Part shown: piece after piece, positions 1 to 55,827 of the stretch
How positions within the stretch are numbered: the stretch's first letter is position 1
Layout of the letters: the number at the start of each line of letters is the position of its first letter
From: Octopus vulgaris
Taxonomy: Eukaryota
NCBI GenBank assembly: GCA_951406725.2
Contig: OX597833.1
Location: 11,532,001-11,596,000, forward strand
DNA length: 64,000 bases
Reading direction: 5' to 3'
Translations under genes and position numbers: made by a program
The notes under the pieces: generated by a model
What the model was told of the DNA's origin: nothing
Databases searched by the model: none
What the model saw: only the letters and a program-made list of their open reading frames with translations

Positions 1-2654
1 CCCTCAAGTGTTCAGTGAAACGGTCGGACAACCGGCGTCCCGTCTGTCCTACATACAGCATCCCGCATAGGTTGCATTTAATGCAGTAAATAAGGCCAGA
101 CGAGGTGCACGTGAAAGAGTGCCTAATGCGTACAGTATGCAGGTTGGAGCCGGTGACAGCGGTGGTGTTGGTGATGAAGGGGCAAGTGTTGCAGCGGGAT
201 CTAGAGCAAGGGAATGATCCGTGGGGGGCTGAGGGGAAGGAGAGAGGGTGCTGTGGACCAGGAGGTCACGCAGATTGCGGGCTCGTTTGAAAGAGGACAG
301 GGGTGGGTTAGGGAAAATGGGGCGGGTGGTGGGATCAAGCTGGAGGCGACGGAAGGCACGTAGTATCTTGCGACGAAGGGGTAGGGTAGAGGGGTGGAAA
401 AGGAGGGGGAAGGGGTGCGGTTGGGGGGTGGGCGGGGGGAAGGAGACAGGGCGGTAGTGCGGTCGATGCGACGGGCGCGGGTGAGGGCATCAGAGAGGAG
501 TATGGGTGGGTAACCTCGGAGTCTGAACATGCGGGCCAGGTATTGAGATTGGGTCTCGAAATCCTGGTCGCGGCTGCACAAACGTCGGAGGCGGAGGAAC
601 TGGGAGTAGGGGATGGCTCGTTTGGTGTGGAAGGGGTGGGAGGAAGAGAAGTTGAGATAGAGGTGGGAATCCGTAGGTTTAAAGAAGGCGGTGGTGGTGA
701 GAGAGCTGGAGGGGTGATCGATGCGGAGAGAGATGTCAAGGAAGTTGACAGAGGTGTTGGAGATGGTGGAGGTGAATTGAAGAGAGGGGTGAAAGTTGGA
801 AAGGAAAGAGATGAATTGGCAGAGAAGTTCACGGGAAAGGGAGGTGGCACCTACGCAATCGTGGATATAGCGACCGTATAGTTCGGGGGTCGGCCCAGAG
901 AACTGGGAGAACACTTGGGCCTCAATGTAGCCAAGAAAGAGATTGGCGAAATTGACGCCCATCCTAGTTCCCATCGCGACCCCGCACATCTGTTGGTACG
1001 TTTCCCCGGCGAACGTGAAGCAATTGAGGGTGAGGACGAGCTCAGCCAAACGGAGAAGGGTGGGGGTGCTGGGGGTGGGGTCGGGACGACGGTCGAGGAA
1101 GTGTTGGAGGGCTAGGAGACCGTCATTGTGGGGAATCACTGTGTACAGGGATTTTACATCTAAGGTGAAGAGGAGGTGTGAGGAGCTGGAAGGGAAGGAA
1201 AAGGAATTGAAGAGACGGAGAGCGTGGTTGGTGTCGTGTATGTGGGATGGGAGGGCTGCGACTAAGGGGGACAGGATGCGGTCGAGGTATAGGGAGATGA
1301 GTTCAGTGGGGCAATTACAGGCAGAGACTATGGGACGGCCAGGGTTAGAGGGTTTATGGATCTTGGGAAGGAAGTAGATGGTGGAGGTGCGGGGTGTGCG
1401 GACGATGAGGTTGGTGGCGGTGAGGGGGAGAGCGGAGGAGGAGATGAGGTCGTGGATGGTGGAGGACACTCGCTGTTGGTAGGAGGAGGTGGGATCGGAG
1501 GGGAGGAGGCGATAGAAGAGGGGATTTTGAAGCCGGTTGAGCGCTTCCTCCCTGTATAGGTCCGCGCGCCACACTACCACTGCCCCGCCTTTGTCCGCCG
1601 GTTTGATGACAATGTCATCACGACGGCGGAGGTGGCGAAGGGCAATGGATTCGGCCCGAGTGAGGTTGGCTCGGCGGGGTCTTGGTTCAAAGTTGAAACG
1701 GTGGACCAAAGCGTTGCAGTCATGTACAAACGAATCTAGGCTACTGAAAAGGCCTGGGGGCGGCGTCCAGATGGATGGACGACGCCCCAGCTCCAAAAGG
1801 CAATCCTGATTGTTGTGACGCTGCGGGGACGCGTGGTAGTATGCGCAAAGTTTGAGGCGGCGCAGGAACAGGTTGACGTCCGCCCGAGTCTCGAACTCAT
1901 CACAGTGGCGCGTGAGCGGCGTGAAGCGGAGACCCTTACTGAGGAGGGAGCGCTCAGCGGCGGAGAGGGGGAGGTTGGGGGTATAGTGACAACAGCGCGA
2001 GGAAGCGGGGTGGTGGGAGGACTAGGGGCAGGCGGAGGGGGTGCAGGGGTGTGAAGGGGAGGGTAGGGGTGGTTGGGTGAACATGGGTTAGGCGTAGGAA
2101 GGTCACGGTGGGGGCGTTTTGGTCCGTGGAAGGGTGGGGTAGGTGCGAAGGAGGGGGGGAACAGTGGGGGATGATGGGGAAGGGGGTGAGGGGTTGAGGA
2201 GGAGGTGGAGTTTTTTGTTTTTTGTGTGTGTGAGGTAGTTGTAGAGTTGGTGGTTGAGATTAAGAATGAACCGGAGGATAGGTTGGGTGAAGAGTGGAGG
2301 GCAGAGGGCGGAGAGAAGGAGGTAGGCCTGGGGAAGTTGATGGTCGAGGGAGTCAAGGAGGGGGCGGGTGGAGCGGATGGTGGCGCGGAGGAGGGAGCGG
2401 GAGGTACGAGCGAGGGTGGCTTCGATGAAGGGGGAGGAATAGGGGGTAGCGTGGAACTTCAAGAGGAAACCGCGGGGTGTGACATGATGGCGGAGGCACC
2501 GGCTAAGAAAGGAAAGATGACTAGAATGGCGGGTTTTCTTAAAAAGCAAGCGGGAAAGTTTTATAGCAGGTGCGGAACATTGTGGGGGGAAGAACGCGAG
2601 GTAGCGGCAGAGGAGGGATTGAAGGTGTTGGACGAACGAGTGCAAGTCAGGCAT
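1..2654 (-). pseudogene. Frameshifted PLE RT/GIY-YIG polyprotein
   Basis: Coding pieces lie in different frames (2103-2672, 201-1796, and below 430). The catalytic YIDD motif reads YIHD. Confidence 0.85.
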
Positions 2655-3066
2655 GATGAGAAGTGGTGGCAAACAGGTAAAGGTGGGTGGTGGCGAAACA
2701 GGAAAAGGAGAGACAACAGGAAAACAACAAAAGAAGAAAAAGGGTGAAGACGGTTTGAAAACAATAGAACAAAGTTGAAAAAAGTCAGGAAAGAGATTTG
2801 AGAGTCAACGGACAGATTAGGTAATGATTTTCAATCACGGTAATGGCGGTACTCCGGAAGAAGGTTGCGGGTGATCCGTAGGTCAGGAAGAATGGTAACA
2901 ATAATCCGTAGGTGCAACAAATCCGGGAATTGGTGTCCAAGGTACAAGGGGTCCGTGTAGGCGCGCAGTGGTATAATTTTAATCCAAACGGGAAACAAAA
3001 AAACAACAACAATGGAACAATTACAGTATTATTATTAATAGGCGCTCAGGAAATGGAAGCAGGGAG

Positions 3067-3101
3067 GTATGACGTTTCGAGCGGAGCTCTTCGTCGGAAA
3101 C
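3067..3101 (-). ncRNA. Minimal type I hammerhead ribozyme of the PLE pLTR (degenerate)
   Basis: The minus strand reads GTTT CCGACGAA GAGC-TCC-GCTC GAAAC GTC ATAC. The core has U4>C and helix I has one mismatch. Confidence 0.7.
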
Positions 3102-3677
3102 ATAAAGAAGGAAGAGAGAGGAAAGAAAGATCCCAGAGCGGGCAACAGGGATAGAGAAAAAAACGACTGGTGTTTACGAGTTACACATGGTGAAAGGCGG
3201 ATGTTTACGATAACAAGGGCAAAGTGGGTTTTTAAAGGCAAAAGAGTGGAGACAAGGTTGGTAACGCAACAGATGTGTGTGTATGTGTGAGTGTGTGCGT
3301 GTGCGTGTGTGTATGTGTGTGTGTGAGGCGAGATAAAAAAACAAAAAATATATGTATGTGTTAGTGTGTGCGTCTGTGTGTAGGCGTGTGAGGTAGGGCG
3401 AGACGGTGGTCAGCATAGCAGATAAAGGTCAGTAGTAAGAAAAATATATATATATGCGACTTCGTAGCGATACCTTACAGTCATTTATCTGAGAAATACT
3501 CCACACACACCAACATGCATGAATGATTACCTACAGGTAGTTAGTTGGGTGGTGTACATTTTGTGATATTTCTGAAGCAGATGATTAATACCTTTTATAA
3601 GACGAGAACGTTAAACTGGATAGGAACCTGTTGATGCGCATTCAGGGCCAACGCAATGGTACATATGGAAGTTATTT

Positions 3678-3846: not shown

Positions 3847-4961
3847 ATATATAATTGTGCTTATATGTTAGCATTTTGTCAGTTACGTGTGGGTTCCGGC
3901 GGTAAGCCATATACCAGCTTTAAACACACACAACCATAATCATCTTTCCCCTCCAGTCACACTACCACCGAGCACTTCTCAGGACGCACACCACATACCA
4001 TTATCCGCATACACTCCCACAATCTTTAATAGCAGCGCCACACATGCCACTATACAGGCAGTCACGCACATTGTTTCACCTAGTACACACAACATAATGC
4101 ACACTACTGCACCCAGACAGGCGCATAACACATGAATACAGACAATGCATATACACAAACACGCAACGCACATAACCACACGCAGTATGCATACGCACCG
4201 ACAAATTTCGCTCACAATACATAATCAATACACATGCACACTATTTGGTCATTGACACATACATACACAAGTACAGGCTCCACCTGAACAAGGACACATC
4301 ACATTCTACACACAACACGCACACGTTAATCCCACACATACACACACGTCCATAAGCATACTAACACAGATACACATTTCCATACGAACACGCACACACA
4401 TATACACCCAGACTCGCTCATACATATCTACCCACACGCTGCCATTCACATATACACCCTCACACACACCACTCACACACGCTTGAGCACCTTAGTTCGT
4501 TTGGATTACAGTTACACTTGTTATTTTCATACACCCTCAACAAATTAGACTGCTGGAAAAGAAATAATCTTAACATCGATTTGCAATCTCAGATACAAAG
4601 AGGCCCCCAAAGTAGGTCCCTAAGCTGTACCTATTGAAACTGTTTTCTAGAGCCGTACGAATCTGGGTTTTATACCCGTTTCCTATCTCCATCTCTTCTC
4701 ATCTTTCAGGATAGTTCCCAATACACCTCTAAGTACTCCAATACATTTTCCTCTCAAATAGAGACAACAGAAAGGCCAGGTCCTCGTACTTTACTCTTCT
4801 TTCTATACTTCTCCTATTAATGTTTTCATTATTTGGGACTTAAAAGTCAATTGTGTGGACACTTTCTATTCTCTTTATCTACTAATACCAAATCAGGCCT
4901 TCAGGCTTCAATTACTGTGTAGGTCTGAATGTTAAAGACCCACACTATATTATATCTCTTA

Positions 4962-5060
4962 CATTCTACTAATTTACTAGGTTCATGTTCATACCAGTTA
5001 TCACCATGTTCATTCTACTAATTTACTAGGTTCATGTTCATACCAGTTATCACTATGTTC
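4962..5060. repeat. 49-bp tandem duplication
   Basis: cattctactaatttactaggttcatgttcataccagttatcac(c/t)atgtt occurs twice in a row. Confidence 0.85.
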
Positions 5061-5179
5061 AAATAGTAGCTTTCTACATAGCTTCCGGTGGGTTATCTCC
5101 CTAGATTATCATGTCTTTTCTACAATTCCTTCTGTACCAGCATGCAACATTCACTTAGCAAAGGATTAACGCTTTCCTC

Positions 5180-5960
5180 TTTTGATTTCCGTAAACTTCA
5201 TTGGGAATCTACTTTGTTTTTGTCTATTTTGGCCATTATCAAATTAGTCCTCCATGCTTGATCTTATGCCGCAACTAACAAACTTTGTCTTCCGCTCCAG
5301 CTTCCCTTTCTGCAAACATGAGCTTCTCCCAGTACCACAATTTGATGCTACTATCTTTGGGAATCTACCATGCATAGGAGTCTATATCTAATCAAGGTAA
5401 CTCCAAAAAGTCTCCTATTGATATTAACCCTCTTCCGCCTTTCTTTCTGTGTTGATATAATCTTACTACTCCTGCCTTTGTGTGGAGTCATCCATCTGTC
5501 TAAATTTGCAAATACAGTTTTTGTCTAATTTACAAAAGCTGCTGAGTATCTAAGTAATGAGACTGCCTAAGTAAACACGGCCTTCACTACATTTGGACAA
5601 TTTACCTTTGCCTTCATTAGCTTCCTCACCCTCCGATGTACCCCTTCTCCATTTTCGTTTACATTTCTGTATTTAGTACCCAGATTCTAATACTACTAGA
5701 TACTTACAGCTCTCTCCTCCTTCCAATCCTTTAAAGGTCTGGACATCTGTTAATTGGACGTCTTCACTGCTGACTATCTGCCCCTTCTCATAACTAATAT
5801 CTATGCCAAATTCCATGCCTATATCGTTGTTGAAGTGTCTTACAGTCTGTATTATAAATGTAACGTTTTTTTCACTCTTACTAAATGCCAACAGATCCTC
5901 CATGTGGAGCAATTGGTTAATTTGTCGCTTATTAATTCTGAACTGACAGCCTGCCATTGT
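5180..5960 (-). mobile_element. Degenerate R4/Dong-like non-LTR retrotransposon RT fragment
   Basis: Motifs INQLLHMEDL (from INHLLYMDDL), NDIGMEFGID, KYLVVLE and LYQHRKKGGRGLISI. Confidence 0.7.
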
Positions 5961-6312: not shown

Positions 6313-6414
6313 GAAGAAGAAGAAGAAGAAGAAGAAGAAGAAGAAGAAGAAGAAGAAGAAGAAGAAGAAGAAGAAGAAGAAGAAGAAGAAGAAGAAGAAG
6401 AAGAAGAAGAAGAA
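6313..6414. repeat. (GAA)n microsatellite
   Basis: About 34 perfect GAA units. Confidence 0.95.
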
Positions 6415-6617
6415 TGCGGGAGTGCCATGATAGTAGTATGTTAAATGGTCAAGTGCCCTGAAAGTGACACGTTGTGGATGGTAGTAGTGTTTGGGACTGT
6501 TTTTGAAAAAACAGTTTTTTTTGCAAAACAGTCCCAATCGCTGCTATAATCCATAACGAGGCACATTTAGGTCAATTGACCATTTAACACGCTACTACTA
6601 TCACACTACCTGCATTC
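6412..6617. repeat. Imperfect palindrome / MITE-like foldback
   Basis: gaatgc..tagtagt..gttaaatggtcaa..ttgggactgtttt is mirrored by aaaacagtcccaa..ttgaccatttaac..actacta..gcattc. Confidence 0.75.
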
Positions 6618-7609
6618 CTTCTTATTCTCCCTTCTTATTCTCCTTCTTCTTCTGCGTCTTCTTCCTCTCCTTCCAACTCCTTCCTAACTTTACCACTATT
6701 GCTGTTTAGAGTAACACCTAGGCAAACTTTATAAAGAAAACATTCAAAAGAGATGTCTCAAGAATTCAGTCACTAAAAACTGCATGGCTGCAGTTTAATG
6801 ACTGAAAATATGTACAGGTGTGGTTTCATTTATTATTCTAGTTGAAGAGCATTTAGGACGTATCTAAGTGGTATGAGATCCGAATATAAGGTGTGGGAAG
6901 TTTATGTAAATATAGGTTAAAAATTGTCACTGAGAGGACAAATAGTCATATTCCAGTCGAATTTTCAAGACTATTTTCCGTGTAAAGTCCATAGACATAA
7001 TAGCCTTATATGTATTTAGCTAAGCAGCATTCTGCGGTGTTTCCTAAGTGGATGTGAAAAGTTATTCATGGGATGGTAACGGAGAATTGAGCGGAAAGAT
7101 CTGCGGATATTGATTTTTGTTAGAGTTGTACATGTGGGAGTAATTCTTTTGTTGTTGTAGCCATTATATATTTCATGATGAGTTTGTAAAGTAGTGTGGT
7201 GCTTCAGTGAGTTTGTCTTAGTTTGTATTATGAATCCGAGTGATTCTTTGAAAAGCCATACGTCTGATATGGTGGCGCCAGTACGAGACTTGCTTGAATT
7301 TTTAAAGTTGCGCGTGAACAGTTGATATCTTTCTGTGATGGTACTTCATTCTAAGGTTTGGTGTATTTGAGACAGTAAAGAAATTCCTGTTAAACTAAAT
7401 ATCATTTTACTTTAAGATTTAAATGTTATGCACAGAACCTTACACCATGATTCTTGGACTATTCGCCCAGGTTTACATTGTTATGCTTTCATATTTCTCA
7501 CAGTCTATCATGTGTTTTTGTTTTTTCGTTTCTTTTTCAACATTTTCTGAAGGCAAGTATAACAAATTATGACTGTGGCAATGGCTCACCAATTAAGCTG
7601 AATACTTTG

Positions 7610-10526: not shown

Positions 10527-11026
10527 TCAATATTTACTGCACACAACGCAGGATAATTCTTGACCTCCGACATACGGTGGACATGGCAATGAACCACAAG
10601 AAGCCTGTACAAAATATAATATGGCTCCGTCTTCGTTTCTGTAACCTGCTGGATCAGCTTCTGGTGCATGATCCACACACACATATTCTAGCCGGCCCTT
10701 TTTTTGGTGATGACTGGACATCAAATATCCTGAATATTCAGTTGCCCAACCTTCGTAACACTGTGTCCTGGCTGGTAACATCATAACAACAGCAGGTTGT
10801 TGTGTCAAACAGACAGCGCACGGAACGTTGTGATCATGAATTGATTCAGCGTTAGCAAAAGAAAAGAGTTTATTCGTTGGGTATAAATCTAATTGATATT
10901 CACTGCCATGAATCCAACCTCCATCTTCAACTTTTGCAGTATAATTGGCCCAAATGGGATCGTTAGGTAGACATAAGAGATTACTTCCGCCACCTGGGTT
11001 GTCGTACCATTCTCCACCAGCCACAC
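10527..11026 (-). CDS. Gene A exon 4: short-chain collagen C4-like (spongin NC1-related) domain
   Basis: Acceptor ctag|GT, phase 1. Reads GGGSNLLCLP..GSEY..HNVPCAVC..PARTQCYEGW..EYSGYLM..YVCVD..CGSLPCPPY..CVVCSKY*. Confidence 0.92.
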
Positions 11027-13639: not shown

Positions 13640-15130
13640 ATGGCTATTCCTTCGAGCCCTTAGCGTACTGTATGTATATGCAGCAAACACCGAGGTCAAA
13701 TACAAATCAATCCTAAGCAAATTCACGTCAGCTTTAGATATATTTGGGGTAAAGTCATTTGTCGTGCATGGTGACTTCAGTGCACACCTTGGCACTGATA
13801 ACCGTGAGAAGGATTGATTGGAAGGAATGTCGTCAGTGAACTTAATGGAGAGATCATAGCAGCCTTCAGTGCAGGATATACACTCTCCTCTCTATGGTAT
13901 AGGTATTATTTTAAGACAGGGATATTTATAAGGGTGCCTGGTATAGAAATTCTTGGTGACAGAGGTTTCTGATAGATTTCGGTCATCTTTCACTCTTTGC
14001 TGAACGTTCGTGTAAAAGGAAGGGGTGGAGTTGTCAACTCGTCACTACCTAAATGTCTAAAAACCTGAAAATTCCTACAGTCTGCCGAACACTGGAATTT
14101 GGTAAGTCCAGTGCGACCTACAGAATACAGTTGGAAGCCGCAGTGGATGCTGGGATCAGAAACAAAAATGTGGAGACATTTCCATCCAAATTGAGAGTGA
14201 CCCTCCTGAATGAAGTTGAACATCGAAATGGATTCGTGATTGTATTATTATTTCCGTCAGGTTCTTCTTCGGTTGAACGCTTATTTGAGCTAAACTCACT
14301 TAAAATTGATAAAGCTGCTGGTGAAAAGCACGTTCGGCTTAATATTTTAGAAACCTTAAATACAGATGGTATTCTCTGAGTGTCCCATGTATGCTAGGAG
14401 GATGGGACCTCTGGAAAAAACACCAAGGCAATGGTAATATGGGGTGACAATCACAATTTTTTCAAACGGAGACCAAAGAGTGTGTTCTAATTATAGAAAA
14501 GTCTACACTAGATGTCAGGGAAATATATGTAGGGAAATTGTCGTGCCTAAGATTACCCTCCGAGATGCAGTACACCGGACCAGATAGTCATTTAAAGACA
14601 GATCTTCCAGCAAAATCTTGAAGCATTTCCAAGAGGAATACGCTGTAAACCACGGAAAGGCACACGATCACGTGCCCTGGGACATGTTGCGGATGGTTTA
14701 CCAGAAAGGTGAGTTTAATGGGAAATACTTGTTGCCATAAAGTACTTATATGGATGTTCAAATGTTTGTATTTATGTAAAAGTCGAAAGTTTTCAACGAG
14801 AAGTTTTCACTTAGTTGAAGTGTGCATTGTTAGTGCCCCTTCTCATATTCATTTTTGTGATCTGGTTGAATATGCACAGCCATTGTGGTAGAGGTATCCC
14901 AATTCATCTCTACCTGATCGGTCGACTGTTATTTGTAGACGACATGCTTCTACCTGATTCGTCTGATGGTCACCAACAACGTGCACTGAATTGGTTGGTT
15001 GCCGAGTACCCCCAAGGCAGGATTGACAAATACGCACTGTGCAGGAAAGTGGAACATCATTATTTCGGGTCTCTATTCACGAATGATTGGAAAACAAGAG
15101 TGGACAGAATGCTGAATTGTAGATATAAAC
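13640..15130 (+). mobile_element. Degenerate RTE-clade LINE (APE endonuclease + RT) in intron 2 of gene A
   Basis: VYAANTE..VHGDFSAHLG (APE), KAAGE..LETLN and LLFVDD (RT), with many stops and frameshifts. Confidence 0.75.
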
Positions 15131-15395
15131 GCAGGTCTTGGTACAATTATCAACGTAGCACTGCATATATACTCATATACACACAATAAATGGCATAGTA
15201 TATTAGAGTAACATTTTATTTAGGAAATTATTGTAATGTAGAATATATTTTAAAATAAATACAGGCAAGTGTCTTAGTATATATTATTGTGGACATATGG
15301 ATAGTATTGTGGAACTAGTTCAAAGTTGGTGAAATTATAAACCATTACTTAAGGAGACACGGGTAAAAGACTTTAGCTATAAAATTAGTTCTTAC

Positions 15396-15447
15396 TTGGT
15401 GTGACATCAGGTTTATCGTCGAGAGATTTCTTAGAGATGAAACGGTT
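15396..15447 (-). CDS. Gene A exon 2 NRFISKKSLDDKPDVTP (stalk)
   Basis: Acceptor ttttttcacag and donor A|gtaaga. The 52-nt phase 0-1 exon exactly bridges exons 1 and 3 and is conserved in copies B and C. Confidence 0.85.
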
Positions 15448-15539
15448 CTGTGAAAAAATAGAAATAGCATCATATAAATAGAACTTCAGGGTATTTATTA
15501 TCGTTTAGAACTTAAAACAATGCAATAGATGACAACATA

Positions 15540-16126
15540 TTCGGACAGGTATCATTGCCAACACTACCATCTCAACCCCTTAGGAATCTTCTAGAAGGCG
15601 CTTCTGAACAATATCAGAGAATACAACTATGCATTTCAAATGACATCGTTTAGTGAATCTAAGAAAATAGATAAACATGAATTTACGCCGACGTCAAAGT
15701 TCAAGGGCAAGTCTATCCCCTCATTGGTTCCCTGGTACCCGCGAATGAACAACCACAGTTCCTCCAAATTTACTCCATGAGTGATGTAGGACAACAAACC
15801 CGACGTGAGGTGTCAAAATTTCCGATGATGGGTCGTGTTAGACACAGGGCACACTGCTGCAAAGGAGGGTATATCCACTGATAGCTTTTCGGTGCGTTCA
15901 AAATTCACACAAACCCCACCTCCAATTTTGCATGAGAGTTTAGGGCCTGAAATACTCCAAACGGACGCATAGCATGTTGCTTAGTCGAATTATCCCAGCA
16001 TTTACTCTACAAATATTTTGTTGTCAATGTTGCACTTTCCCATATCACCTGTTTCAAAAGGACTGGAATATATTATATACCCACTTTGCCATTTTAATCC
16101 CCAGCAATGCCGGGTATGTCTACTAG
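15540..16126 (+). mobile_element. Helitron remnant with 3' terminus
   Basis: NIRxYNxAFQMTSF..KVQGQVY..IGSL..QFLQIY Rep-helicase N-terminal motifs, then a CCCAGC-AAT-GCCGGG hairpin followed by CTAG|T at 16123-16127. Confidence 0.75.
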
Positions 16127-16224
16127 TACACACACAGGAAGATATCTCCTCCAGCTGGCTATAGACACACTATCTGTGTCCTCTCAGTATTTGTGAAGGG
16201 GAGTCATCCTCCCCGTCTTCAACT

Positions 16225-16285
16225 CATGATACACACGGACCCGAGTTTCAAGGTGTTTACCTATCATCAGCGTGTGACAATCATG
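16225..16285 (-). ncRNA. Type I hammerhead ribozyme (inverted arm)
   Basis: Exact reverse complement of 16570-16630. Confidence 0.8.
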
Positions 16286-16569
16286 GTTGTCGACGAGAAG
16301 TCAGCTCCCTTCACAAATACATATACTTTTTCCAGTGTCGATTGACACTGATATTGAAAAAGTGAAATCAAACATTGATAAATCTCAGAGCGAGTTATAA
16401 ACAGTAGCGGTAACACATCATGACGCATATTTGCCATTTGAATATGGCTACTGTTTATAACTCGCTCTGAGATTTATCATTGTTTGATTTCACTTTTTCA
16501 ATATCAGTGTCAATCGACACTGGAAAAAGTATATGTATTTGTGAAGGGAGCTGACTTCTCGTCGACAAC

Positions 16570-16630
16570 CATGATTGTCACACGCTGATGATAGGTAAAC
16601 ACCTTGAAACTCGGGTCCGTGTGTATCATG
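16570..16630 (+). ncRNA. Type I hammerhead ribozyme
   Basis: CATGAT-TGT-CACACG CTGATGA T-AGGT-AAAC-ACCT-T GAAA CTCGG GTC CGTGTG-T-ATCATG, with predicted cleavage after C16617. Confidence 0.82.
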
Positions 16631-16871
16631 AGTTGAAGACGGGGAGGATGACTCCCCTTCACAAATACTGAGAGGACACAGATAGTGTGTCTATAGCCAG
16701 CTGGAGGAGATATCTTCCTGGGGCTACAAACTACAGTAGCATCCACCCTTAGGGGTTAGCCATATTCAAATGGCAAATATGCGTCACGATGTGTTACCGC
16801 TACTGCTTATAACTCGCTCTGAGATTTATCATTGTTATATATATATATACATGTATATATATAGTTAAAAT

Positions 16872-17130
16872 TATCCAAACAAGAAAGCACAAAAAAACAA
16901 CAACGCGATTACGTGGAACAAATATAGTATTATTGGACGCTCAGGAAAGAAGGAGGGTTTAACGTTTCGGGTGGAGCTCTTCGTTAGAAACATACGAGAT
17001 GGAAAGATCCAGAGGAGGAAAGACAGAGGAAAAGAAATCGCCAACGGTACACACGCGGTCAGATTTTGAATGATCGAAGGGAAATGGGTGAAGAAAAGTT
17101 CTTTCAAAGAGAGGAGAGTGGTAGAGGAGG
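16872..17130 (-). mobile_element. Solo pLTR / 3' fragment related to the Neptune-like element at 1-3440
   Basis: Similar to 2980-3200 (ccaaac..aaaaaaacaacaac..cgctcaggaaa..cgtttcg..ggagctcttcgt..gaaacata). Confidence 0.7.
16957..16991 (-). ncRNA. Degenerate minimal hammerhead (Neptune-type pLTR)
   Basis: GTTT CTAACGAA GAGC-TCC-ACCC GAAAC GTT AAAC. The G5>A core change is probably inactivating. Confidence 0.6.
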
Positions 17131-18236
17131 AGGAATGTGTGTGTAAGAGTGGATAAGAGCGTGAGCGGAGGTCTGCGTATGAGTGTGTGTGTATGTGTGT
17201 ATGTGTGCAATGATGACACGTGTGTGCATGTGTGTGTGTATGTGTGTGCTGTTGTGGCTGTTAATCTGCGTGTTGTAAGGCTATTAGTGTTAAGGTCAAG
17301 GAAGAAGGAATTGGGCGTGGCTACTTCCGTCTCTACCACAAATCAAGTAGTAGGTACTGCTAGTTTGAAGTATGTGTGTGTGTGCGTGTTTGTATATGTA
17401 TCGTGTGTGTGTTTTGTTTGTAGTGTGTGTGTGTCGGTATGTATGTTTGAGTTCGTGTATATAGGCGTAGAGTTAGGGTGTGTGGCGAATAACTGTGCTT
17501 TACATAGTGTATGTGTGCGTGTGTGTGTATGTGTGTATGTGTGCAATGATGACACGTGTGTGTGTGTGTGTTTTGTGTGTAGTGTGTTTGTGTGTGTATG
17601 TGTGTGTATGCGTAGAGTTTGGGTGTGTGGCGAATAACTGTGCGTATGTGTGTATTCATGTTTGTATAATTGTGTGCGTGTATGTATAATTGTGTGCCGT
17701 ATGTATGGGACGTATGTGTGGGTTCATTTGTGCGTGTGTGTATGCATGTGCGTGTCGTATGTGCGCGTAGTTGTGTGTGCGTGTACGTGTGCGTTTGTAT
17801 GTGTGTCTGAGCGTATATGGGTGCATATACGTGTATCCGTGGGGTTGTGAGTTTTCGGCGTGTGCATTCGTGTGCGCATGTTTTTGCGTGCGTGTCTGTG
17901 TGTCTGTGTCTATATGTGTATACGGATGTGTATGTGTGTGTGCGCGTGTAGGCATATATTGTGTGTATGTATATGTATCGGTGTGTATGTGAATTTGTAC
18001 ATGCGTGTGTGTGTGGGGGGTTTTGGAGTTGTGTGAGCGTAATGTGCGTGCGTGTGCTTGTGTGCGTGTGTGCGCTTAAGTACGTGTATGTGCGTGTGTG
18101 TCTGTGCCCATGTGTGTATAAGTGTGTGCGTATCTGTATGAGTATCGTAAAATGTATATGTGGGCATCTGTGCTGGTGTGTGTGTATGTACGTGTGTATG
18201 TGTGTGTGTGTGTATTGTGTGCGTATGATACATATA

Positions 18237-18512
18237 TCTCCGTGATCACCGTCACTGAACAGTTGTTGCTACATATCGCTGGTCACAATGCGCTTCGCAT
18301 TGTTTTAGCCTTCAAATGACGCCACCCCGCGGGCTAAGCGAGCAGGCCAACAGAAGAAAGGGAGAATGTTGTAGCGAAAGAGTACAGCAGAGATCACAAC
18401 AACCCGCTCCCTGAGCCTCGTGGAGCTTTAAACACACACAACGCCCAGTCTGGGAATCGAAACCGCGATCCTACAACCGTGAGTCCGCTGCCCTAACCAC
18501 TGGGCCACTGCG

Positions 18513-18516
<4 letters not shown>
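18237..18516 (-). mobile_element. tRNA-derived SINE
   Basis: The minus strand starts GAGGCGCAGTGGCCCAGTGGTTAGG (A box) and has GGTTTCGATTCCC (B box). A head fragment also lies at 19501-19558 (+). Confidence 0.8.
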
Positions 18517-18561
<45 letters not shown>

Positions 18562-19309
18562 AATACATATCAATATATACGTATGCACGGATACTTAGGC
18601 ATACACACCATAAATATCACAAATATACGTATCTACTTATACGCATACACACACACAAACGCACACATATATGTGAGTGGACATACACTGTATAGTGTGA
18701 TTGTTCGTGTACAATTAAGCACGTGTGTCTGTGTGCGTGCGTATGTGTGTGTGTTTGTGTTTATTTGTGCGTGTGTTTGTCCGTGTGTCTGTGTGTATGT
18801 ATTTACATTCGTTCTTACATATTGTCATATATAAAAACCAACGTGAATTACAGTCAAACATTACGAAATTCACCGATCTACATTGGCACTCGCACGTTTT
18901 ATTTTCAGTTGGAAAGAAAATATTAAAAAAACCCGCCTCACTTCCGTTCCTGATGGAGAGAAATAGATAAATGTGTGTAAATATGTACGTATTCCTATGT
19001 GTGCGTGTGTGTGTGTTTGTATGTGTCTGTTTCTGTGCGTGTGTGTAAGTGTACATCTAGATATAATACTTAACACTAATATTAATAGGGCTAAACGTTG
19101 CAGCGACAGGGCATGGCCATGCTAGAACTCCACCATTAGATTTTTTTCATTACGCACTTATTTCCCTCTCCAGGATTATGTCTGGTGAAAGAGCGATCGG
19201 ACAGGAGTACAATTGCACTCTTCTTTGTGTTTCCTCGGGATGTGTGTATATGTATATATACATACATATATATATATACATATACATACATATATATATA
19301 TATTTAAAT

Positions 19310-19371
<62 letters not shown>

Positions 19372-19439
19372 TGATAGTTAGATATGTATGTATATACATA
19401 CGTAACTATATATGTGTGTTTGTATATATGATATGTATG

Positions 19440-19502
<63 letters not shown>

Positions 19503-19560
19503 AGGTACAATGGCCCAGTGGTCGTAGGATCGCGCTTTCGATTCCCAGACCGAGGGGTGA

Positions 19561-19594
<34 letters not shown>

Positions 19595-19598
<4 letters not shown>

Positions 19599-19756
19599 TT
19601 TTGGCAATAAGTTGCTTAAACTACATACCGAAAATGTTAGAAATAGCAGTCAAAGGCCTACCATTTCTATTACAACAATGGTAGAAATGGTAGCCCTTTG
19701 ACTGCTATTTCTAATATTTTCGGTATGTGGTTTAAGCAACTTGTTGCAAAAAACCC
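19595..19756. mobile_element. Palindromic MITE
   Basis: gggttttt..aagttgcttaaa..cataccgaaaat..tagaaatagcagtcaaagg..taccatttcta is mirrored almost perfectly. It abuts (TA)n. Confidence 0.8.
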
Positions 19757-19874
19757 TTATTATAATTATATAAATTTTTACCGTATATGGTCCTTTTCCA
19801 TACCGAAATACTACTAGGTGAAATTTATTGATTTTATTAAATTTATTATACTTCACACATTATCTGTATCTATG

Positions 19875-19906
<32 letters not shown>

Positions 19907-20780
19907 TTACAGTGTCTGTGTGGTAAAACACTTGCTTCTTAACCACAAGGACGAATTGGACGAATGCCTACCACTCTAACCTCCAGCTGACCAGAGCCAT
20001 CTAAGTAGATTTGGTAGATTTAGACTGAAAGAAGGGTGCTATACACACACACACACACAAACACAAACACACACACACACACACATGTGTATGTATGTAT
20101 GTATCTATATATTATGTATGTGTCTGTGATTGTCGCACCACTATTGCTTCTCAACTGATGTCGGTGTGTTTACATCCCCGTTACATAGCGGTTCGGCTAG
20201 AGATACTGATACACTGAGCACTAGGCTTAAAAAGAATAATTCCTGAAGTCGATTTCTCCTACTAAACGCAGTGCTCTAGTATGGCCGCAGTCAAATGACT
20301 GAAACTAGTAAAAGGTTATTTTTATACATAAACATACACACACATATATATATGTATAGAGAGAGAGATAGACAGAGAGATACAGAGATAGATACACACA
20401 TATATATGTTTGTATATTTATATATATGTACACGCACTAATATATTCATATATATGTATATTTATATATACATATATATGTATATTATATATACAAATAT
20501 ATGTATATGTATATATATGTATATACATATATGTATGTTTAGGTGTGTGCGCCTGTGTGTTTTTGTGTGATTACGTGTGTGATGGATCGTATGTGTGTGT
20601 GTGTGTGTGCTCTATAGGAACATATGTACATGGTTAATGCATACATCCGTCCATCCATCCATACATCCATATATTAATACATACATACGTTGATGCATAC
20701 ATGCATACACTCATGCACGTATAAGTACCTATATAAATACATAAAGACATACATATATTAACAAAAAATCCATGACTTAC

Positions 20781-20924
20781 CGTTTTCGATTTCTCTTCCA
20801 TTTTTCCTATTCTTGAATCTTGATGAAGAATCACGATCGTCAGAACGAGAAGAACCCCAAAAGCTATGAGAGAAGAAATGGAATAACGCTGCGAAATATT
20901 CCTGGACAGTTGTGCGAAATCCAT
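20781..20924 (-). CDS. Gene A exon 1: cytoplasmic tail + transmembrane/signal anchor
   Basis: MDFAQLSRNISQRYSISSLIAFGVLLVLTIVILHQDSRIGKMEEKSKT with donor ACG|gtaagt (phase 0). The paralogous exon in copy C has the same length. Confidence 0.85.
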
Positions 20925-24790: not shown

Positions 24791-25287
24791 TCAATATTTA
24801 CTGCACACAACGCAGGTTAATTCTTGGCCATTGACATACGGTGGACATGGCAATGAACCACAATCAGCCTCAACGAAATATAATAGAGCTCCATTTTCGT
24901 TTCTGTAACCCGCTGGATCAGCTTCAGGTGCATAGTCCACACAAACATATTCATGTCTGCCCTTATGACTATGACGCTCGGTCATCAAATATCCTGAATA
25001 TTCAGCCGTCCAACCAGAGTAACACTGTGTCCTGGCTGGTAACATCATAACAACAGCAGGTTGTCGTGTCAAACAGACAGCGCACGGAACGTTGTGATCA
25101 TGAAGTGATTTAGCGTTAGCAAAAGAAAAGAGTTTATTTGAGTAGTGGGATATTTCATATTCACTGCCATAAATGTAACCACCTTCTTCAACTTCAGTCG
25201 TATAATTGGCCCAAATGGGATCGTTAGGTAAACACAAGAGATTACTTCCGCCACCTGTGTGGTCAAAGAATTGTCCACCAACCACAC
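24791..25287 (-). pseudogene. Copy B exon 4 (open C4-like domain exon of a probably disabled gene)
   Basis: Intact 497-nt exon with an acceptor, but the upstream exon 3 is frameshifted and no exon 1 was found. Confidence 0.75.
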
Positions 25288-25493
25288 CTAGAATTGGTAA
25301 GAATAAATCAAGTAAAAAAGATATTAAGCAAAATTATATATGAAATAACGGAAACATTCATTACAGTTTGACCCTTAAAAGTAGTCATGTCTAGTCGCGT
25401 GTGAACGAATTGTGGTGTATATATTAGTGTTTATGTGAGTGTAAGCTGTGTGTTGAGGTATGCATGAGATCATAGCTGTGCATTTGCATTCTC

Positions 25494-25535
<42 letters not shown>

Positions 25536-25537
25536 AG

Positions 25538-26420
25538 TAAGCAACAAGGATATCCAGAGATAATGCAGTACAATTGTTTCATGCAACTCCATTTAATTGA
25601 ACAATACAATCATTGCATCAATTTAAAATATAGAGCAACCTTCAGCTGCACAAATACATAGGATTTAATTAAATTAAAACAGATTGACACATTAGTATAA
25701 TTATACCTAAAATCTCCAAGAAGTTAAGGAGATACACAAAGAACAGTTTGTCTCTACTTCAGCATAGAAGTTAATAAAATTATCAAGAAATTTATGAATA
25801 CTTATGAATACAATAAGTATTCAACAATTTCTATCCTTTTGTTATAATATTCTTCTTAATAATCCTTTGGAAAACCCTAAACTTCAACTGTATTCATAGC
25901 AACATTGTTTAAAATATTTAACTATAATATATGATAAGACCTTCCGTTTCATTGTTAATAGTCTGCCAGTGTGCGACCCCTTAATTATCAGTTAACACCT
26001 CATGGTATTGCTTATAATAATTCTTGATTTTTTTATGACTATACCAACTAGAATGTCTCTCTACCCCCTCAGCCCTTCCCCTATGTTCTCTCAGGCTTAG
26101 ATATACAAGAGATGTGTAAACTAGTCTATAAATTAAAACTGACATCATAAATACAAAAAATCAGTGGCAACCTGAGTCTTCTTGATAATTTTAGTAACTG
26201 CTATGCTGAAGTAGAGACAACATGTTCTATGTAATTTCTTGGGGATTTTAGGTATAATTATACAAATGTGTCCATCTGTTCTAATTTAATTAAATCCTAC
26301 GTCTTTTAGCAGCCGAGGATTGCTCTAAATTTTAAACTGATGTAATGATTGCATTGTTGAATTAAATGGAGTTGCATGAAACGAACGTACTGCATTATCT
26401 CTGGATATCATCGTTGCTTA
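25538..26420. mobile_element. Foldback / long-TIR non-autonomous DNA element in intron 3 of copy B
   Basis: ~250-bp imperfect inverted repeats at 25538-25789 and 26179-26420. It is absent from the homologous intron of copy A. Confidence 0.75.
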
Positions 26421-26511
26421 TTTTAATTTTAATCACCTTAATTTGAAATTGTATGGATAATGCCGTACTAAATTCTGGAGCCTCAACTTAAGTACCATAT
26501 TCATCTGAATC

Positions 26512-27866: not shown

Positions 27867-28729
27867 CTGTGAAATTAAAATGAAATAAAGTAGTTTAAAA
27901 GAAAGAATTGGGGAATCATTTACAAAGTAGGATGTTGGATGGGAAGGAATTGATGGAGAAGAGAGAAATATAGAATTTAAGAAAGAACGAGTGAATGAAT
28001 GAAAGTCAGAACGAAAGATGTAAATAATAAGAATAAATTGTAAAGAAAGAAAAAAGACATTTGTCTGTTGAGCCTGTTGGTGACGTTGATGTCAAAGATT
28101 TGAGAGATAAATCTCAGAATATCAGAATGTGTATCGGTCTCCGCTAGGAACGGATGTATGTATGATACGTAAACTTGGGTATGAGTATATATACTTCTCA
28201 ATAGAATAATGATAAAACTCAATAGAATAATGATAAAATATTCGCCAGGTGCGAATATTCATCGGTCAATTACAAATGTCAGTTTGGAGCTCGGCGCAAA
28301 TAAGGCCATCATAACTACAATATAAAAATAACAACAATACCGCATCATTTGTCGATTTAGTTAAAAGACTTCGCATCCGGATCTCGAGTAGAGGAGTCCG
28401 TTCGATAAATGTATAGCACAACACACCCAACACCGGTGCAACCAGCAAATTAATCTGGGGTGCGTGGGGTTGGAACAAAATTGTTAGATATAATCTGCCT
28501 GTAAGATATAATCGGTGTCTCCTGTACAAAATTTCCTTTCTCCGATAGCATACACTTGGATATAGGCTTGAAACTCCACTACGCAACTGTGGTGCCAACA
28601 ATGTCTGCACAGGTGGGATTAGGATACTCTCAATCCCCAGCTTTCGGATTGTATTATGGAGTGAAACCTACTAGGTGTGAGGGTTCACCTCTTGAACTAA
28701 GGCTGAATATGAAAGACCACTGTGGCTGC

Positions 28730-30240
28730 TGTAAATATATGCAGCAAACAGCGGGTTCAAATACAAATCCTTCCTAAGCAAATTCACCTCAGCTTTAGAT
28801 ATATTTGGGGTAAAGTCATTTGTCCTGCAAGGAGACTTCAGTGCACACCTTGGCACTGATAACCTTGAGAAGGATTGATTGGAAGGAATGTCGTCAGTGA
28901 ACTTAATGGAGAGGTCATAGTAGCCTTCTGTGCAGGATACACACTCTCCTCTCTATGGTATAGATATTATTTTAAGACAGGGATATTTATAAGGGAGCCT
29001 AGTATAGAAATACTTGGTGACAGAAGTTTTTGATAGAGTTCGGTCATCTTTCACTCTTTGCTGAACGTTCGGGTAAAAGGAAGGGGTGGAGTTGTCAACT
29101 CGTCACTACCTAAATGTCTAAAAACCTGAAAATTCCTACAGTCTGCCGAACACTGGAATTTGGTAAGTCCAGTTCGACCTACAGAATACAGTTGGCAGCC
29201 GCAGTGGATGCTGGGATCAGAAACAAAGATGTGGAGACTTTTGCATCCAAGTTGAGAGTGACCCTCCTGAATGAAGTTGGACATCGAAATGGATTCGTGA
29301 TTGTATTATTATTTCCGTCAGGTTCTTCTTCGTTTGAACGCTTATTTGAGCTAAACTCACTTAAAAGTGATAAAGCTGCTGGTGAAAAGCACGTTCGGCT
29401 TGATATTTTAGAAACCTTAAATACAGATGGTTTTCTCTGAGTGACCCATGTACGCTAGGTGGATGGGACCTCTGGAAAAAACACCAAGGCAATGGAAATA
29501 TGGGGTGATAATCACAAGTTTTTCAAACAGAGACCAATGAGTGTGTTCTAATTATAGAAAAGTCTACACTAGATGTCAGGAAAAGATATGTAGGGAAATT
29601 GTCGTGCCCAAGATTACTGTTCGGGACGCAGTCCACCCGACCAGATAGTTGTTCAAAGTCAGATCTTCTAGCAAACGTTGAAGCATTTCAAAGAGGAATG
29701 CGTTGTAAACCGCGAAAGTGCACACAATCCCGTGCCCTGGGGCATGTTGCGGATGGTTTAGCAGGAAGGTGAGTTTAATGTGCAAATACTGTTTGCCATA
29801 AAGTACTTATATGGTTGTTCAAATGTTTGTATTTATGTAAAAGTCGAATGTTTTCAACGTGAAGGTTTCACTTAGTTGAAGTGTGCGTTGTTAGTGCCCC
29901 TTCTCACATTCTATTTTGTGATCTGGTTGAATGTGCGCAGCCTTTGTGGTAGAAGTATCCCAATTCATCTCTACCTGATCGGTCGACTGTTATTTGTAGA
30001 CGACATGCTGCTACCTGATTCGTCTGATGGTCACCAACAACGTGCACTGAATTGGTTGGCTGCCGAGTACCCCAAGGCAGGATTGACAAATACGCACTGT
30101 GTAGGAAAGTGGAACATCATTATTTCGGGTCTCTATTCACGAATGATTGGAAGCTCAAGAGTGGACAGAATGCTGAATTGTAGATATAAACGCAGTGAAG
30201 CGCCAGCTCGGGCATTTGATTCTCAGATGAAGAGGGCTTG
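28730..30240 (+). mobile_element. RTE LINE remnant, duplicate of 13640-15130
   Basis: Near-identical ORF fragments (MSKNLKIPTVCRTLEFGK.., LLFVDD). Confidence 0.75.
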
Positions 30241-30495
30241 GTACAATTATCGACGTAGCACTGCATATATACTCATATACACACAATAAATGGCATAGTA
30301 TATTAGAGTAACATTTTATTTAGGAAATTATTGTAAAGTAGAATATATTTTGAAATAAATTCAGGCAAGTGTCTTAGTATATACTATTGTGGACATGTGG
30401 ATAGTAATGTGGAACTAATTCAAAGTTGGTGAAATTATAAACCATTAGTTAAGGAGACACGGGTAAAAGACTTTAGCTATAAAATTAGTTCTTAC

Positions 30496-30547
30496 TTGGT
30501 GTGTCATCAGGTTTATCGTCGAGAGATTTCTTAGAGATGAAACGGTT
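30496..30547 (-). pseudogene. Copy B exon 2 NRFISKKSLDDKPDDTP
   Basis: Same splice sites and 52-nt length as in copy A. Confidence 0.8.
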
Positions 30548-30639
30548 CTGTGAAAACATAGAAATAGCATCATATAAATAGAACTTCAGGGTATTTATTA
30601 TCGTTTAGAACTTAAAACAATGCAATAGATGACAACATA

Positions 30640-30940
30640 TTCGGACAGGTATCATTGCCAACACTACCATTTCAACCCCTTAGGAATCTTCTCGAAGGCG
30701 CTTCCATGCAGTCGAACGATGTTCGGAACAATATCAGACAATACAACTCTGCATTTCAAATGACATCGTTTGGTGAATCTAAGAAGATAGATAAACATGA
30801 ATTTACGCCGACGTCAAAGTTCAAGGGCAAGTCTATCCCCTCATTGGTTCTCTGGTACCCGCAAATGAACAACCACAGTTCCTCCAAATTTACTCTATGA
30901 GAGACGTAGGACAACAAACCCGACGTGAGGTGTCAGAATT
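30640..30940 (+). mobile_element. Helitron Rep-helicase fragment (duplicate of 15540-15830)
   Basis: NNIRQYNSAFQMTSFG motif. Confidence 0.75.
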
Positions 30941-30952
30941 TACACACAGCGT

Positions 30953-48209: not shown

Positions 48210-48499
48210 GTGACGTATTTTTGCCATTTCAATATGGCTAACCCCTAAGGGTGGATGCTACTGTAGTTTTTAGCCCCAGGAGGACACACTCCTCCAGCTG
48301 GCCATAGACACACTATCTGTGTCCTGTGAGTATTTGCAAAGGGAAGTCATCCTTCCCGTCTTCAACTTATGATACACACGGACTCGAGTTTCGAGGTATT
48401 GACCTCTCGTCAGCGTGTGACAATCATAGTTGTCGCCGAGAATTAGATTTCCTTCACAAATACTTATACTTTTTCCAGCGCCCACTGTCGCTGATATTG

Positions 48500-48502
<3 letters not shown>
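48210..48502 (-). mobile_element. Second copy (partial unit) of the retrozyme-like element, embedded in (TA)n
   Basis: Collinear with the reverse complement of ~16497-16788. Confidence 0.82.
48368..48428 (-). ncRNA. Type I hammerhead ribozyme with consensus core
   Basis: TATGAT-TGT-CACACG CTGACGA GAGGT-CAAT-ACCTC GAAA CTCGA GTC CGTGTG-T-ATCATA, with palindromic helix III ACTCGAGT. Confidence 0.88.
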
Positions 48503-55640: not shown

Positions 55641-55827
55641 ATAGAGATATAATTTTTATAATTTTTATAAGTTTTTTATATATATATACATATATTTTTG
55701 ACCTTTTTGTTTATCGCTCGAAGATTGACCGTTTTTTCTAAAGGGCCAATCAAACAAGTCCATTTCTTTTTAAAGGTGTAGCGTTTGTAAGAGTATAGAT
55801 TGAATTGATATATTAGTTCCATTCTAG

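What the first reader, a model, noticed from the sequence alone, without database searches (positions are those of the whole stretch)
16135..16836. ~352-nt non-coding hammerhead retrozyme-like unit
Seen in the sequence: no ORF, and a type I HHR whose helix I extends into a long rod (gtatttgtgaaggg at ~16535 pairs with cccttcacaaatac near 16668). There are extra hairpins (cagtgtc-aatc-gacactg, gccat-attcaa-atggc) and terminal redundancy with a 352-nt period. Established knowledge: metazoan non-LTR retrozymes are short HHR-bearing repeats that produce circular RNAs and are thought to use Penelope RT in trans. Inference: more-than-unit-length integration fits reverse transcription of a circular RNA or a PLE-type tandem. 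I do not know of this family being described in cephalopods. Two candidate helper PLE clades lie in the same window.
Basis: partly seen in the sequence, partly recalled or inferred. Interest (0 to 1): 0.75.

Follow-up and report, generated by a model that had tools for sequence, protein, structure and literature searches.

The report
Octopus hammerhead retrozyme with Penelope scars
This is a very abundant 352-base non-coding repeat of octopus that carries a predicted self-cutting hammerhead RNA and here sits as two head-to-head copies with the insertion marks of Penelope-like retrotransposons, so it likely borrows their enzymes to spread; it is a new member of a known class.

Summary
The hammerhead, rod, hairpins, 352-nt period and lack of ORF are real. 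A third copy (48502-48210, 87% identical) matches Rfam Hammerhead_1 (E 2e-6). Neighbouring exons match an Octopus vulgaris protein at 100%. Thousands of contigs from two DNA runs lie on the unit; they show paired changes in the ribozyme, a palindromic helix III, recurrent 3' ends at 16787 and about 16834 running into (TA)n, and other inverted joints. Inverted copy, tail and TA targeting are Penelope-like element (PLE) hallmarks, while the ribozyme is the canonical retrozyme type. Best reading: a non-autonomous, PLE-mobilised non-LTR retrozyme. Not shown: tandem arrays, cleavage, circular RNA, or the helper. Neptune-like and Hydra-like PLEs are in the window but share no sequence with the unit. 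This locus is probably a dead copy. No cephalopod description turned up in the held literature, but the class is known from mussel, coral and axolotl.

The parts
16447..16798 (+). Copy A: one 352-nt non-coding unit, 43% GC
   Evidence: Period from 38-nt direct repeat; fold z -7.3; ORFs; GC
16799..16836 (+). Overrun (tail) of copy A into a second unit, 37 of 38 identical to 16447-84, ending at (TA)n
   Evidence: contigs of X15 and X20 also end at the equivalent 16481/16483 into (TA)n
16135..16450 (-). Copy B: inverted, circularly permuted copy (unit 16757-16798 joined to 16447-16720), 314 of 316 identical to A
16447..16450 (.). Head-to-head junction, 4-nt microhomology GCTA/TAGC shared by A and B
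   Evidence: Sequence
16579..16623 (+). Type I hammerhead of A; U.U at base of helix II, helix III CTCGGG (both minority alleles); predicted cut after 16617
   Evidence: population alleles
16232..16276 (-). Identical hammerhead in copy B
   Evidence: core starts at 16270, minus strand
16535..16668 (+). Long rod extending helix I
   Evidence: pair 16570/16630 changes C-G to T-A in copy C and in the population
16505..16522 (+). Hairpin upstream of the rod
   Evidence: compensatory change 16508/16519 in copy C
16680..16787 (+). 3' hairpin cassette shared with more diverged relatives; 16787 is the commonest listed 3' end
   Evidence: Summed depth peak 9-11 times the body median; loose ends at 16787 in 19 (X3) and 20 (X2) contigs
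48210..48502 (-). Copy C: 87% identical, 5' truncated, ends at the 16787 equivalent, flanked by (TA)n on both sides; canonical hammerhead with G-C helix II base and palindromic CTCGAG
   Evidence: Rfam RF00163 32.2 bits, E 2.1e-6, gathering 34
16837..16865 (.). TA-rich target tract at the right end; (AC)n at the left end (16127-16134); no target-site duplication over 4 nt
16866..17340 (-). Decayed solo pLTR of the Neptune-like family, tail-to-tail with copy A in the same TA tract (neighbour, not part of the unit)
   Evidence: Aligns to 2972-3380 including a mutated minimal hammerhead
15394..20924 (-). Host context: intron of a short-chain collagen C4-like gene (exons 20924-20781 and 15447-15394)

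Best explanation
This is a high-copy, non-coding 352-nt hammerhead repeat of Octopus, present here as a head-to-head pair, and it is most likely a non-autonomous non-LTR retrozyme that a Penelope-like element's reverse transcriptase/endonuclease copies in trans from a predicted circular RNA. Inferred cycle: (1) tandem master loci elsewhere are read through; (2) two hammerheads pair through the palindromic helix III and cut after GUC, releasing 352-nt monomers that a host ligase closes; (3) PLE protein nicks (TA)n DNA and starts reverse transcription at set sites (16787 or about 16834), running past unit length; (4) at this locus two cDNAs, one from each target strand (390 and 316 nt), would have annealed by their complementary 4-nt 3' ends. 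Shown: anatomy, abundance, covariation, recurrent ends, TA targets. Inferred: all RNA steps, the helper, and twin priming. This locus is probably a dead offspring: it has one hammerhead per strand, and a transcript through it would fold into a 274-bp duplex that buries the ribozyme. I put the identity (non-coding, PLE-mobilised hammerhead unit) at about 0.8 and the full cycle with a circle at about 0.5.
For: Both copies cross the unit junction and the cut site, so the template was a circle or an uncut multimer. A and B differ at 2 of 316 sites and share minority alleles, while only 825 of 4270 contigs in X3 are 99% alike or better, which fits one template copied twice. Hammerhead geometry (helix I 6 bp, helix II 4 bp, palindromic helix III) is the canonical retrozyme type of PMC4209133; both PLE hammerheads in the window have the extra base after A9. 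Population: 16614 is A in 91% of depth in both DNA runs, giving a perfect palindrome; 16592 is A or G in 76% (X3) and 86% (X2) with 16605 C in 24% and 58%, i.e. A-U or G-C pairs; 16570T (66%, 84%) goes with 16630A (97%, 87%). Helix III self-duplex -8.9 (A) and -10.7 (C) kcal/mol. 3' ends recur at 16787 (copy C; 19 and 20 contigs) and 16833-36, 46-49 nt apart, like the two start sites behind the PLE tail. 6 of 9 listed joints change strand. Inverted 5' copy, tail and (TA)n bias are PLE hallmarks. The anole PLE protein nicks and extends both strands. Mussel retrozymes are 350-390 bp, and an axolotl retrozyme has the same U.U mismatch.
Against: No tandem array was seen: only 1 contig (X20, depth 4.9) shows the 352-nt step back, and neither DNA run lists it. 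Copy A has no Rfam hammerhead hit. In the predicted minimum fold the core is paired away, and the open-core fold costs 4.6 (A) and 4.4 (C) kcal/mol. 13-21% of depth carries a U4C core change. In A versus C, 6 of 88 predicted pairs are broken, against 2 double and 6 single changes kept. No similarity to either PLE end (87 to 189 of 200 shuffles score as well). The anole PLE uses uncut RNA and needs no hammerhead cleavage; 8 of 9 Xenopus retrozyme dimers did not cut in vitro. This locus's own inversion joint is not among the listed joints.
Confidence: 0.5

Rival explanations
1. Non-autonomous mini-PLE copied from linear, uncut tandem read-through RNA; the hammerhead is conserved but no circle is the template, and the inversion arises by self-priming (fold-back at the same 4 nt) with later trimming of one arm.
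For: Uncut RNA is the main substrate of the anole PLE. Head-to-head palindromes in rotifer PLEs were read as self-priming. Non-autonomous PLEs with head-to-tail insertions exist in Chlamydomonas. Contigs bridge the cut site in both runs guessed to be RNA (X15 record 3, X20 record 19).
Against: Selection on helix II pairing and the helix III palindrome argues that cleavage matters. Near identity of A and B needs a homogeneous array. Simple fold-back predicts equal arm ends, but they end at 16720 and 16836.
Confidence: 0.3
2. The unit is the pLTR region of an autonomous, ORF-bearing PLE not seen here, and A/B is a truncated or internally deleted insertion.
For: All insertion marks are those of PLEs. 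Xenopus retrozymes match PLE pLTRs. Summed depth peaks over the 3' cassette, as 5' truncation would give. 362 loose ends were not shown. Hydra PLEs carry canonical hammerheads.
Against: In A and B the tail runs straight into the unit with a 352 period. Depth does not drop after the tail (16473-85 vs 16486-98: 361k/408k in X3, 513k/380k in X2), and none of the 24 loose ends shown leads from the tail into non-TA sequence. Loose ends around the cassette look like diverged versions of the same hairpins.
Confidence: 0.12
3. The inverted pair is a DNA-level rearrangement or an assembly fold-back of one ordinary copy.
For: Arms are 99.6% identical; this joint is not listed in the runs laid; no genome or raw reads were held to check it.
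Against: B contains a permuted 42-nt piece from the far end of the unit, has 2 private differences and a unique flank, which a mirror artefact would not give. Other strand-switch joints with different breakpoints exist.
Confidence: 0.05

Closest known systems
Metazoan non-LTR retrozymes (Cervera and de la Pena 2020, PMC7229834), especially the 350-390 bp Mytilus and 353 bp axolotl units
   Same: Canonical type I hammerhead with weak palindromic helix III, unit size, GC under 50%, no ORF, strong self-pairing, co-occurrence with PLEs; U.U at the base of helix II as in axolotl HHR_Amex2.
   Different: Seen here as dispersed 0.8-1.1-unit copies and a head-to-head pair, not as a tandem array; circular RNA and cleavage untested; cephalopod host; PLE-type tail and inversion ('inverted' occurs 0 times in that paper's main text).
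Retrozymes as non-autonomous PLE derivatives (Li, Clavereau, Pollet 2026, bioRxiv 10.64898/2026.07.22.740005)
   Same: Same model: a hammerhead unit mobilised by PLE machinery; solo monomers read as non-transposing offspring.
   Different: That study used co-occurrence and pLTR homology in vertebrates; here no pLTR homology was found and the link rests on insertion scars. This locus fails their 'active' criterion of two tandem hammerheads.
EN+ Penelope-like elements (Penelope/Poseidon, Neptune, Hydra; PMC8557442, PMC3846280, PMC11167929)
   Same: Head-to-head inverted 5' copy with a short overlap, optional tail from two start sites, (TA)n targeting, 5' truncation, hammerhead upstream of the 3' end.
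   Different: No RT-GIY-YIG ORF; 352-nt period; hammerhead lacks the extra base after A9 seen in minimal PLE hammerheads; end spacing 46-49 nt against the 30-40 bp usually quoted.
Rfam RF00163 Hammerhead_1
   Same: Copy C aligns over all 45 model positions (32.2 bits, E 2.1e-6).
   Different: Below the gathering score of 34; copy A gives no hit.

Membership tests
Non-LTR retrozyme | Canonical type I hammerhead | tested here: met
   Motif in 3 of 3 copies; Rfam hit for C only; paired changes in the population
Non-LTR retrozyme | Short unit (150-450 bp), GC under 50%, non-coding | tested here: met
   352 nt, 43% GC, longest ATG ORF 56 codons; no tRNA gene in 15000-18000
Non-LTR retrozyme | Stable, highly self-paired RNA | tested here: met
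   z -7.3 for A, -5.8 for C; prediction only
Non-LTR retrozyme | Head-to-tail tandem with two or more hammerheads on one strand (family level) | tested here: inconclusive
   Absent in this window (1.11 units; head-to-head), so this locus is at best an offspring copy. A and B both cross the unit junction; 1 contig shows the 352 step back; no genome held
Non-LTR retrozyme | Self-cleavage as monomer or dimer | not testable with these tools
   Helix III self-duplex predicted; needs in vitro transcription
Non-LTR retrozyme | Expressed as unit-length linear and circular RNA | not testable with these tools
   Only contigs were available, which cannot show ends, strand or level
Non-LTR retrozyme | Loop 1-loop 2 tertiary contacts; absence of PBS/PPT | not tested
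   Not examined
Non-LTR retrozyme | High copy number, PLEs in the same genome | tested here: met
   4270 and 3820 contigs laid in two DNA runs; 3 copies and two PLE clades in 64 kb
PLE-type insertion | Inverted copy head-to-head at the 5' end | tested here: met
   6 of 9 listed joints change strand, one on the rod's own axis
PLE-type insertion | Optional tail from two 3' termini | tested here: met
   Ends at 16787 and 16833-36; the second end rests on copy A and 2 contigs
PLE-type insertion | Microsatellite/AT-rich target | tested here: met
   (TA)n at A and C, (AC)n at B; loose ends
Autonomous EN+ PLE | RT plus GIY-YIG ORF between pLTRs | tested here: not met
   No ORF in or next to the unit
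Derivative of the window's Neptune-like or Hydra-like PLE | Sequence shared with the helper's pLTR | tested here: not met
   Local alignments no better than shuffles for 4 of 4 PLE end regions; nhmmer finds only A, B, C

The most novel reading that the evidence does not exclude
Octopus carries thousands of copies of a viroid-sized circular ribozyme RNA that a (TA)n-targeting Penelope-like enzyme, possibly of the Hydra clade, copies directly as a circle from two fixed start sites, priming from both target strands at once. The head-to-head pair would then be a genomic record of one circle copied twice, and direct evidence for the so far only hypothesised PLE mobilisation of retrozyme circles, with no shared pLTR sequence needed.
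Probability: 0.25. Interest if true: 0.7.

Novelty: new member of a known kind. Interest (0 to 1): 0.45.

Why it matters
How animal retrozymes integrate is open: a 2020 review says their repeats show no motif that reveals the helper (PMC7761336), and the 2026 preprint leaves the mechanism unresolved. This family carries PLE insertion scars (tail, head-to-head copy, TA target) on a unit with no ORF. Its 352-nt RNA with mapped candidate start sites is a small ready substrate for the existing in vitro PLE assay, which could test circle against linear template and twin priming against self-priming. It also extends the class to cephalopods, as far as the held literature shows, and flags an abundant octopus repeat that a 2026 O. 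vulgaris repeat annotation does not call a ribozyme element. If no circle exists it is an ordinary non-autonomous PLE family.

Tried and rejected
No whole genome is held, so copy number, tandems and ORF linkage could not be counted. Rfam at gathering score: 0 hits in 64 kb; the MIR9481 and sau-59 matches to A (E 0.06, 9.7) are read as chance hairpin matches. Pattern scans found nothing: viral contigs 0 in 2 scans, metagenome contigs 0 in 2, prokaryote genomes 0 in 1. Earlier findings of this scan: none in 3 look-ups. Expression: no RNA holder listed; runs X15 and X20 are only guessed to be RNA, so their 105 and 102 contigs are not used as proof of transcription. One variant looks enriched in X15 over DNA run X3 (16553 G>A), but most DNA contigs fail to align across 16548-56, so I rejected the comparison. 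Summed depth divided by the depth of 1-2 long contigs gives about 4,700-5,400 for the body and about 50,000 for the 3' cassette; the tool warns this is no copy number and overlapping contigs inflate it, so only 'thousands' is claimed. Pfam gave no family for either PLE ORF; clades rest on homologue searches and motifs. My first label 'Naiad' for the 55.8-kb element was wrong (strand misread) and was corrected to Hydra-like. No target-site duplication over 4 nt; no tRNA gene; the bacterial promoter scan is irrelevant and at chance. A relaxed hammerhead scan gives 0-3 hits per shuffled window, so the hit at 46408 is treated as chance. The supplement of PMC7229834 could not be read, bioRxiv supplements are closed, and Lunse 2017 (PMC5785218) is not held; any of these may list cephalopods. 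Repbase and Dfam were not searchable, so the family may already be deposited under another name.

Full report
Observation. A type I hammerhead lies at 16579-16623 with predicted cleavage after C16617, and 30 block-shuffles of the window gave 0 strict hits. Helix I extends into a rod closed by 16535-48/16655-68, and both named hairpins form in the predicted fold, which is more stable than all 100 shuffles (z -7.3). 16447-84 repeats at 16799-836 (37 of 38), giving a 352-nt period. The longest ATG ORF on the circularised unit is 56 codons.

The 702 nt hold two copies head-to-head. Copy A (+) is 16447-16836: one unit plus 38 nt. Copy B (-) runs from 16450 to 16135 and matches the circularised unit at 314 of 316 sites, starting at the 16757 equivalent, crossing the unit junction and ending at the 16720 equivalent. 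This makes 274-nt inverted arms around a 38-nt spacer. The two copies share 4 nt at the junction. A ends in a TA tract, B in an AC tract, and no target-site duplication over 4 nt is seen. A third copy, C (48502-48210, minus, 87% identical), lies in (TA)n and ends at the 16787 equivalent. C matches Rfam Hammerhead_1 over all 45 positions (32.2 bits, E 2.1e-6, gathering 34). A gives no hammerhead hit at E <= 10, which I put down to its U.U at the base of helix II and a G in helix III (inference). A profile search finds no further copy in the window.

Host. An exon at 10575-11024 is 100% identical to an Octopus vulgaris short-chain collagen C4-like protein. Further exons at 20924-20781 and 15447-15394 place A/B in an intron of that minus-strand gene; C lies between exons of a paralogue. 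A transcript through A/B in either direction folds into one long duplex (about -572 kcal/mol) that buries the ribozyme, and each strand has one hammerhead. So this locus probably cannot release a monomer (inference).

Family evidence. No genome is held. Of 24 runs listed, 20 hold the unit or part of it, from 10 studies and four coded organisms; none is on record as RNA. I laid 4 of the 24, all contigs: 4270 (X3) and 3820 (X2) contigs from DNA-type runs, 105 (X15) and 102 (X20) from runs guessed to be RNA. Summed depth over the body is thousands of times that of long flank-bearing contigs, and 9-11 times higher again over 16680-16770; this is not a copy number but points to thousands of copies. 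In both DNA runs 16614 is A in 91% of depth, which makes helix III a perfect palindrome. 16592 is A (59%, 34%) or G (17%, 52%) while 16605 is C in 24% and 58%, so A-U and G-C pairs dominate and A's U.U is a minority. 16570T (66%, 84%) accompanies 16630A (97%, 87%) in the rod (40 of 70 variant rows were shown, and linkage between sites is inferred from frequencies and from copy C). Between A and C, of 88 predicted pairs 74 are unchanged, 2 change on both sides, 6 on one side, and 6 break. Loose ends behind 16743 show relatives with a hairpin GCCAC..GTGG in place of GCCAT..ATGG. Helix III is predicted to self-pair over 8 bp in both A and C, the basis of dimer cleavage (PMC4209133). Against activity: the minimum fold closes the core (4.4-4.6 kcal/mol to open), and 13-21% of depth has U4C.

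Ends and joints. Among the 24 of 386 loose ends shown, 19 (X3) and 20 (X2) contigs leave the unit at 16787 into TA-rich sequence, exactly where C ends; single contigs of X15 and X20 leave at the 16833 and 16835 equivalents into (TA)n, next to A's end. Two termini 46-49 nt apart mirror the two reverse-transcription start sites that create the PLE tail (PMC11167929). Of 9 joints listed, 6 change strand (one on the rod's own axis, perhaps spurious), 2 are skips, and 1 steps back 352 (X20, depth 4.9). The window's own inversion joint is not listed. Depth does not fall where the tail runs on into the unit, and no shown loose end leads from the tail into other sequence.

Helpers. 204-2804 (-) is a broken PLE ORF of Neptune type by my reading of its motifs and linker (clade label from recall; homologues carry RT and GIY-YIG domains), with a minimal hammerhead at 3097. 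A decayed solo pLTR of it abuts copy A across 29 nt of TA. 55845-57926 (+) has RWK and DKT motifs and a C-terminal endonuclease, the marks of Hydra, a clade that inserts in (TA)n (PMC8557442); it carries a hammerhead-like motif at 55838 and 60676 and ends in (TA)n. Neither shares sequence with the unit: 87 to 189 of 200 shuffles score as well in 4 of 4 comparisons. The helper is unknown.

Mechanism. Shown: a non-coding, covarying hammerhead unit, abundant, with recurrent ends in TA tracts and inverted insertions. Established: an inverted 5' copy, an optional tail and microsatellite bias mark PLE integration, and metazoan retrozymes form circles after hammerhead cleavage and ligation. Inferred: A (390 nt) and B both span the cut site and the unit junction, so the template was a circle or an uncut multimer. 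Their near identity in a heterogeneous family favours one template used twice. Two cDNAs primed from opposite target strands would end in TAGC and GCTA, which are complementary; the anole PLE protein nicks and extends both strands. Fold-back at the same 4 nt with later loss of 116 nt from one arm fits too, as does a linear tandem template, since the anole enzyme needs no cleavage.

Comparison and novelty. It works like the non-LTR retrozymes of mussel, coral and axolotl and meets their sequence features; the tandem, cleavage and circle features are unproven, so membership is likely and not established. It is not an autonomous PLE. A July 2026 preprint already argues that animal retrozymes are non-autonomous PLE derivatives. 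Searches for octopus + hammerhead ribozyme, cephalopod + retrozyme, cephalopod + self-cleaving ribozyme, non-autonomous Penelope and octopus + Penelope gave no description of this family in the listings; the 2026 O. vulgaris repeat paper has 0 mentions of ribozyme or hammerhead in text and supplement. Unread supplements, subscription papers, Repbase and Dfam may hold it.

What I saw of each paper. 10.64898/2026.07.22.740005: parts 1-3 of 5 (abstract to discussion). PMC7229834: parts 2-4 of 6 and a term search; supplement unreadable. PMC11167929 and PMC4209133: parts 1-2 of 4. PMC8557442, PMC3846280, PMC7761336, PMC5680766, PMC8490949, PMC8967140: passages. PMC13282606: passages and a supplement search. 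PMC5785218: nothing.

Verdict. Real feature; new member of a known kind. Its value is the PLE insertion signature on an ORF-free retrozyme-type unit. Interest 0.45.

Noticed in passing
window 55648-60742 (+): Hydra-like PLE (RWK, DKT, C-terminal endonuclease) in partial tandem, ending in (TA)n, with a hammerhead-like motif at 55838 and 60676 whose helix III (CTCAGAG) resembles the unit's (CTCGAG). The passages read of the paper defining Hydra name Mollusca as hosts; I did not check cephalopods.
   Followed up: partly
window 204-3400 (-) and 16866-17340 (-): Broken Neptune-like PLE with a minimal hammerhead carrying U4C at 3097, and a decayed solo pLTR of the same family directly beside copy A.
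   Followed up: partly
window 48210-48502 (-): Copy C has an intact canonical hammerhead in sense orientation within an intron of a collagen C4-like paralogue; it could cut the pre-mRNA if active as a monomer. A 5'-truncated LINE RT ORF (48774-50651, +) sits in the same TA tract.
   Followed up: no
window 16135-16720: The 274-bp near-perfect intronic hairpin is a likely substrate for A-to-I editing or small-RNA processing (inference).
   Followed up: no
window 16085-16134: The left flank weakly resembles the unit's continuation (16731-16777): score 29, reached by 4 of 2929 random 70-mers; found post hoc and unexplained.
   Followed up: partly
window 16680-16787: The 3' cassette is about tenfold deeper than the hammerhead body, and loose ends show diverged relatives keeping the same hairpins: a larger superfamily or 5'-truncated copies.
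   Followed up: partly
window 7588-62018 (-): Tandem cluster of at least four short-chain collagen C4-like paralogues (main exons near 10575-11024, 24794-25288, 40507-41001, 61522-62018).
   Followed up: partly
window 13668-15821 and 28729-30941: Duplicated 2.2-kb stretch (92%); its end translates to a fragment I recall as Helitron-like (label from memory). The second copy lacks everything up to the 18516 equivalent, including the hammerhead pair.
   Followed up: no
window 6358-6673, 19574-19775, 34457-34663, 25535-26423: Other self-inverted elements (77-85% arms) that look like MITEs; no hammerhead motif found in them.
   Followed up: no
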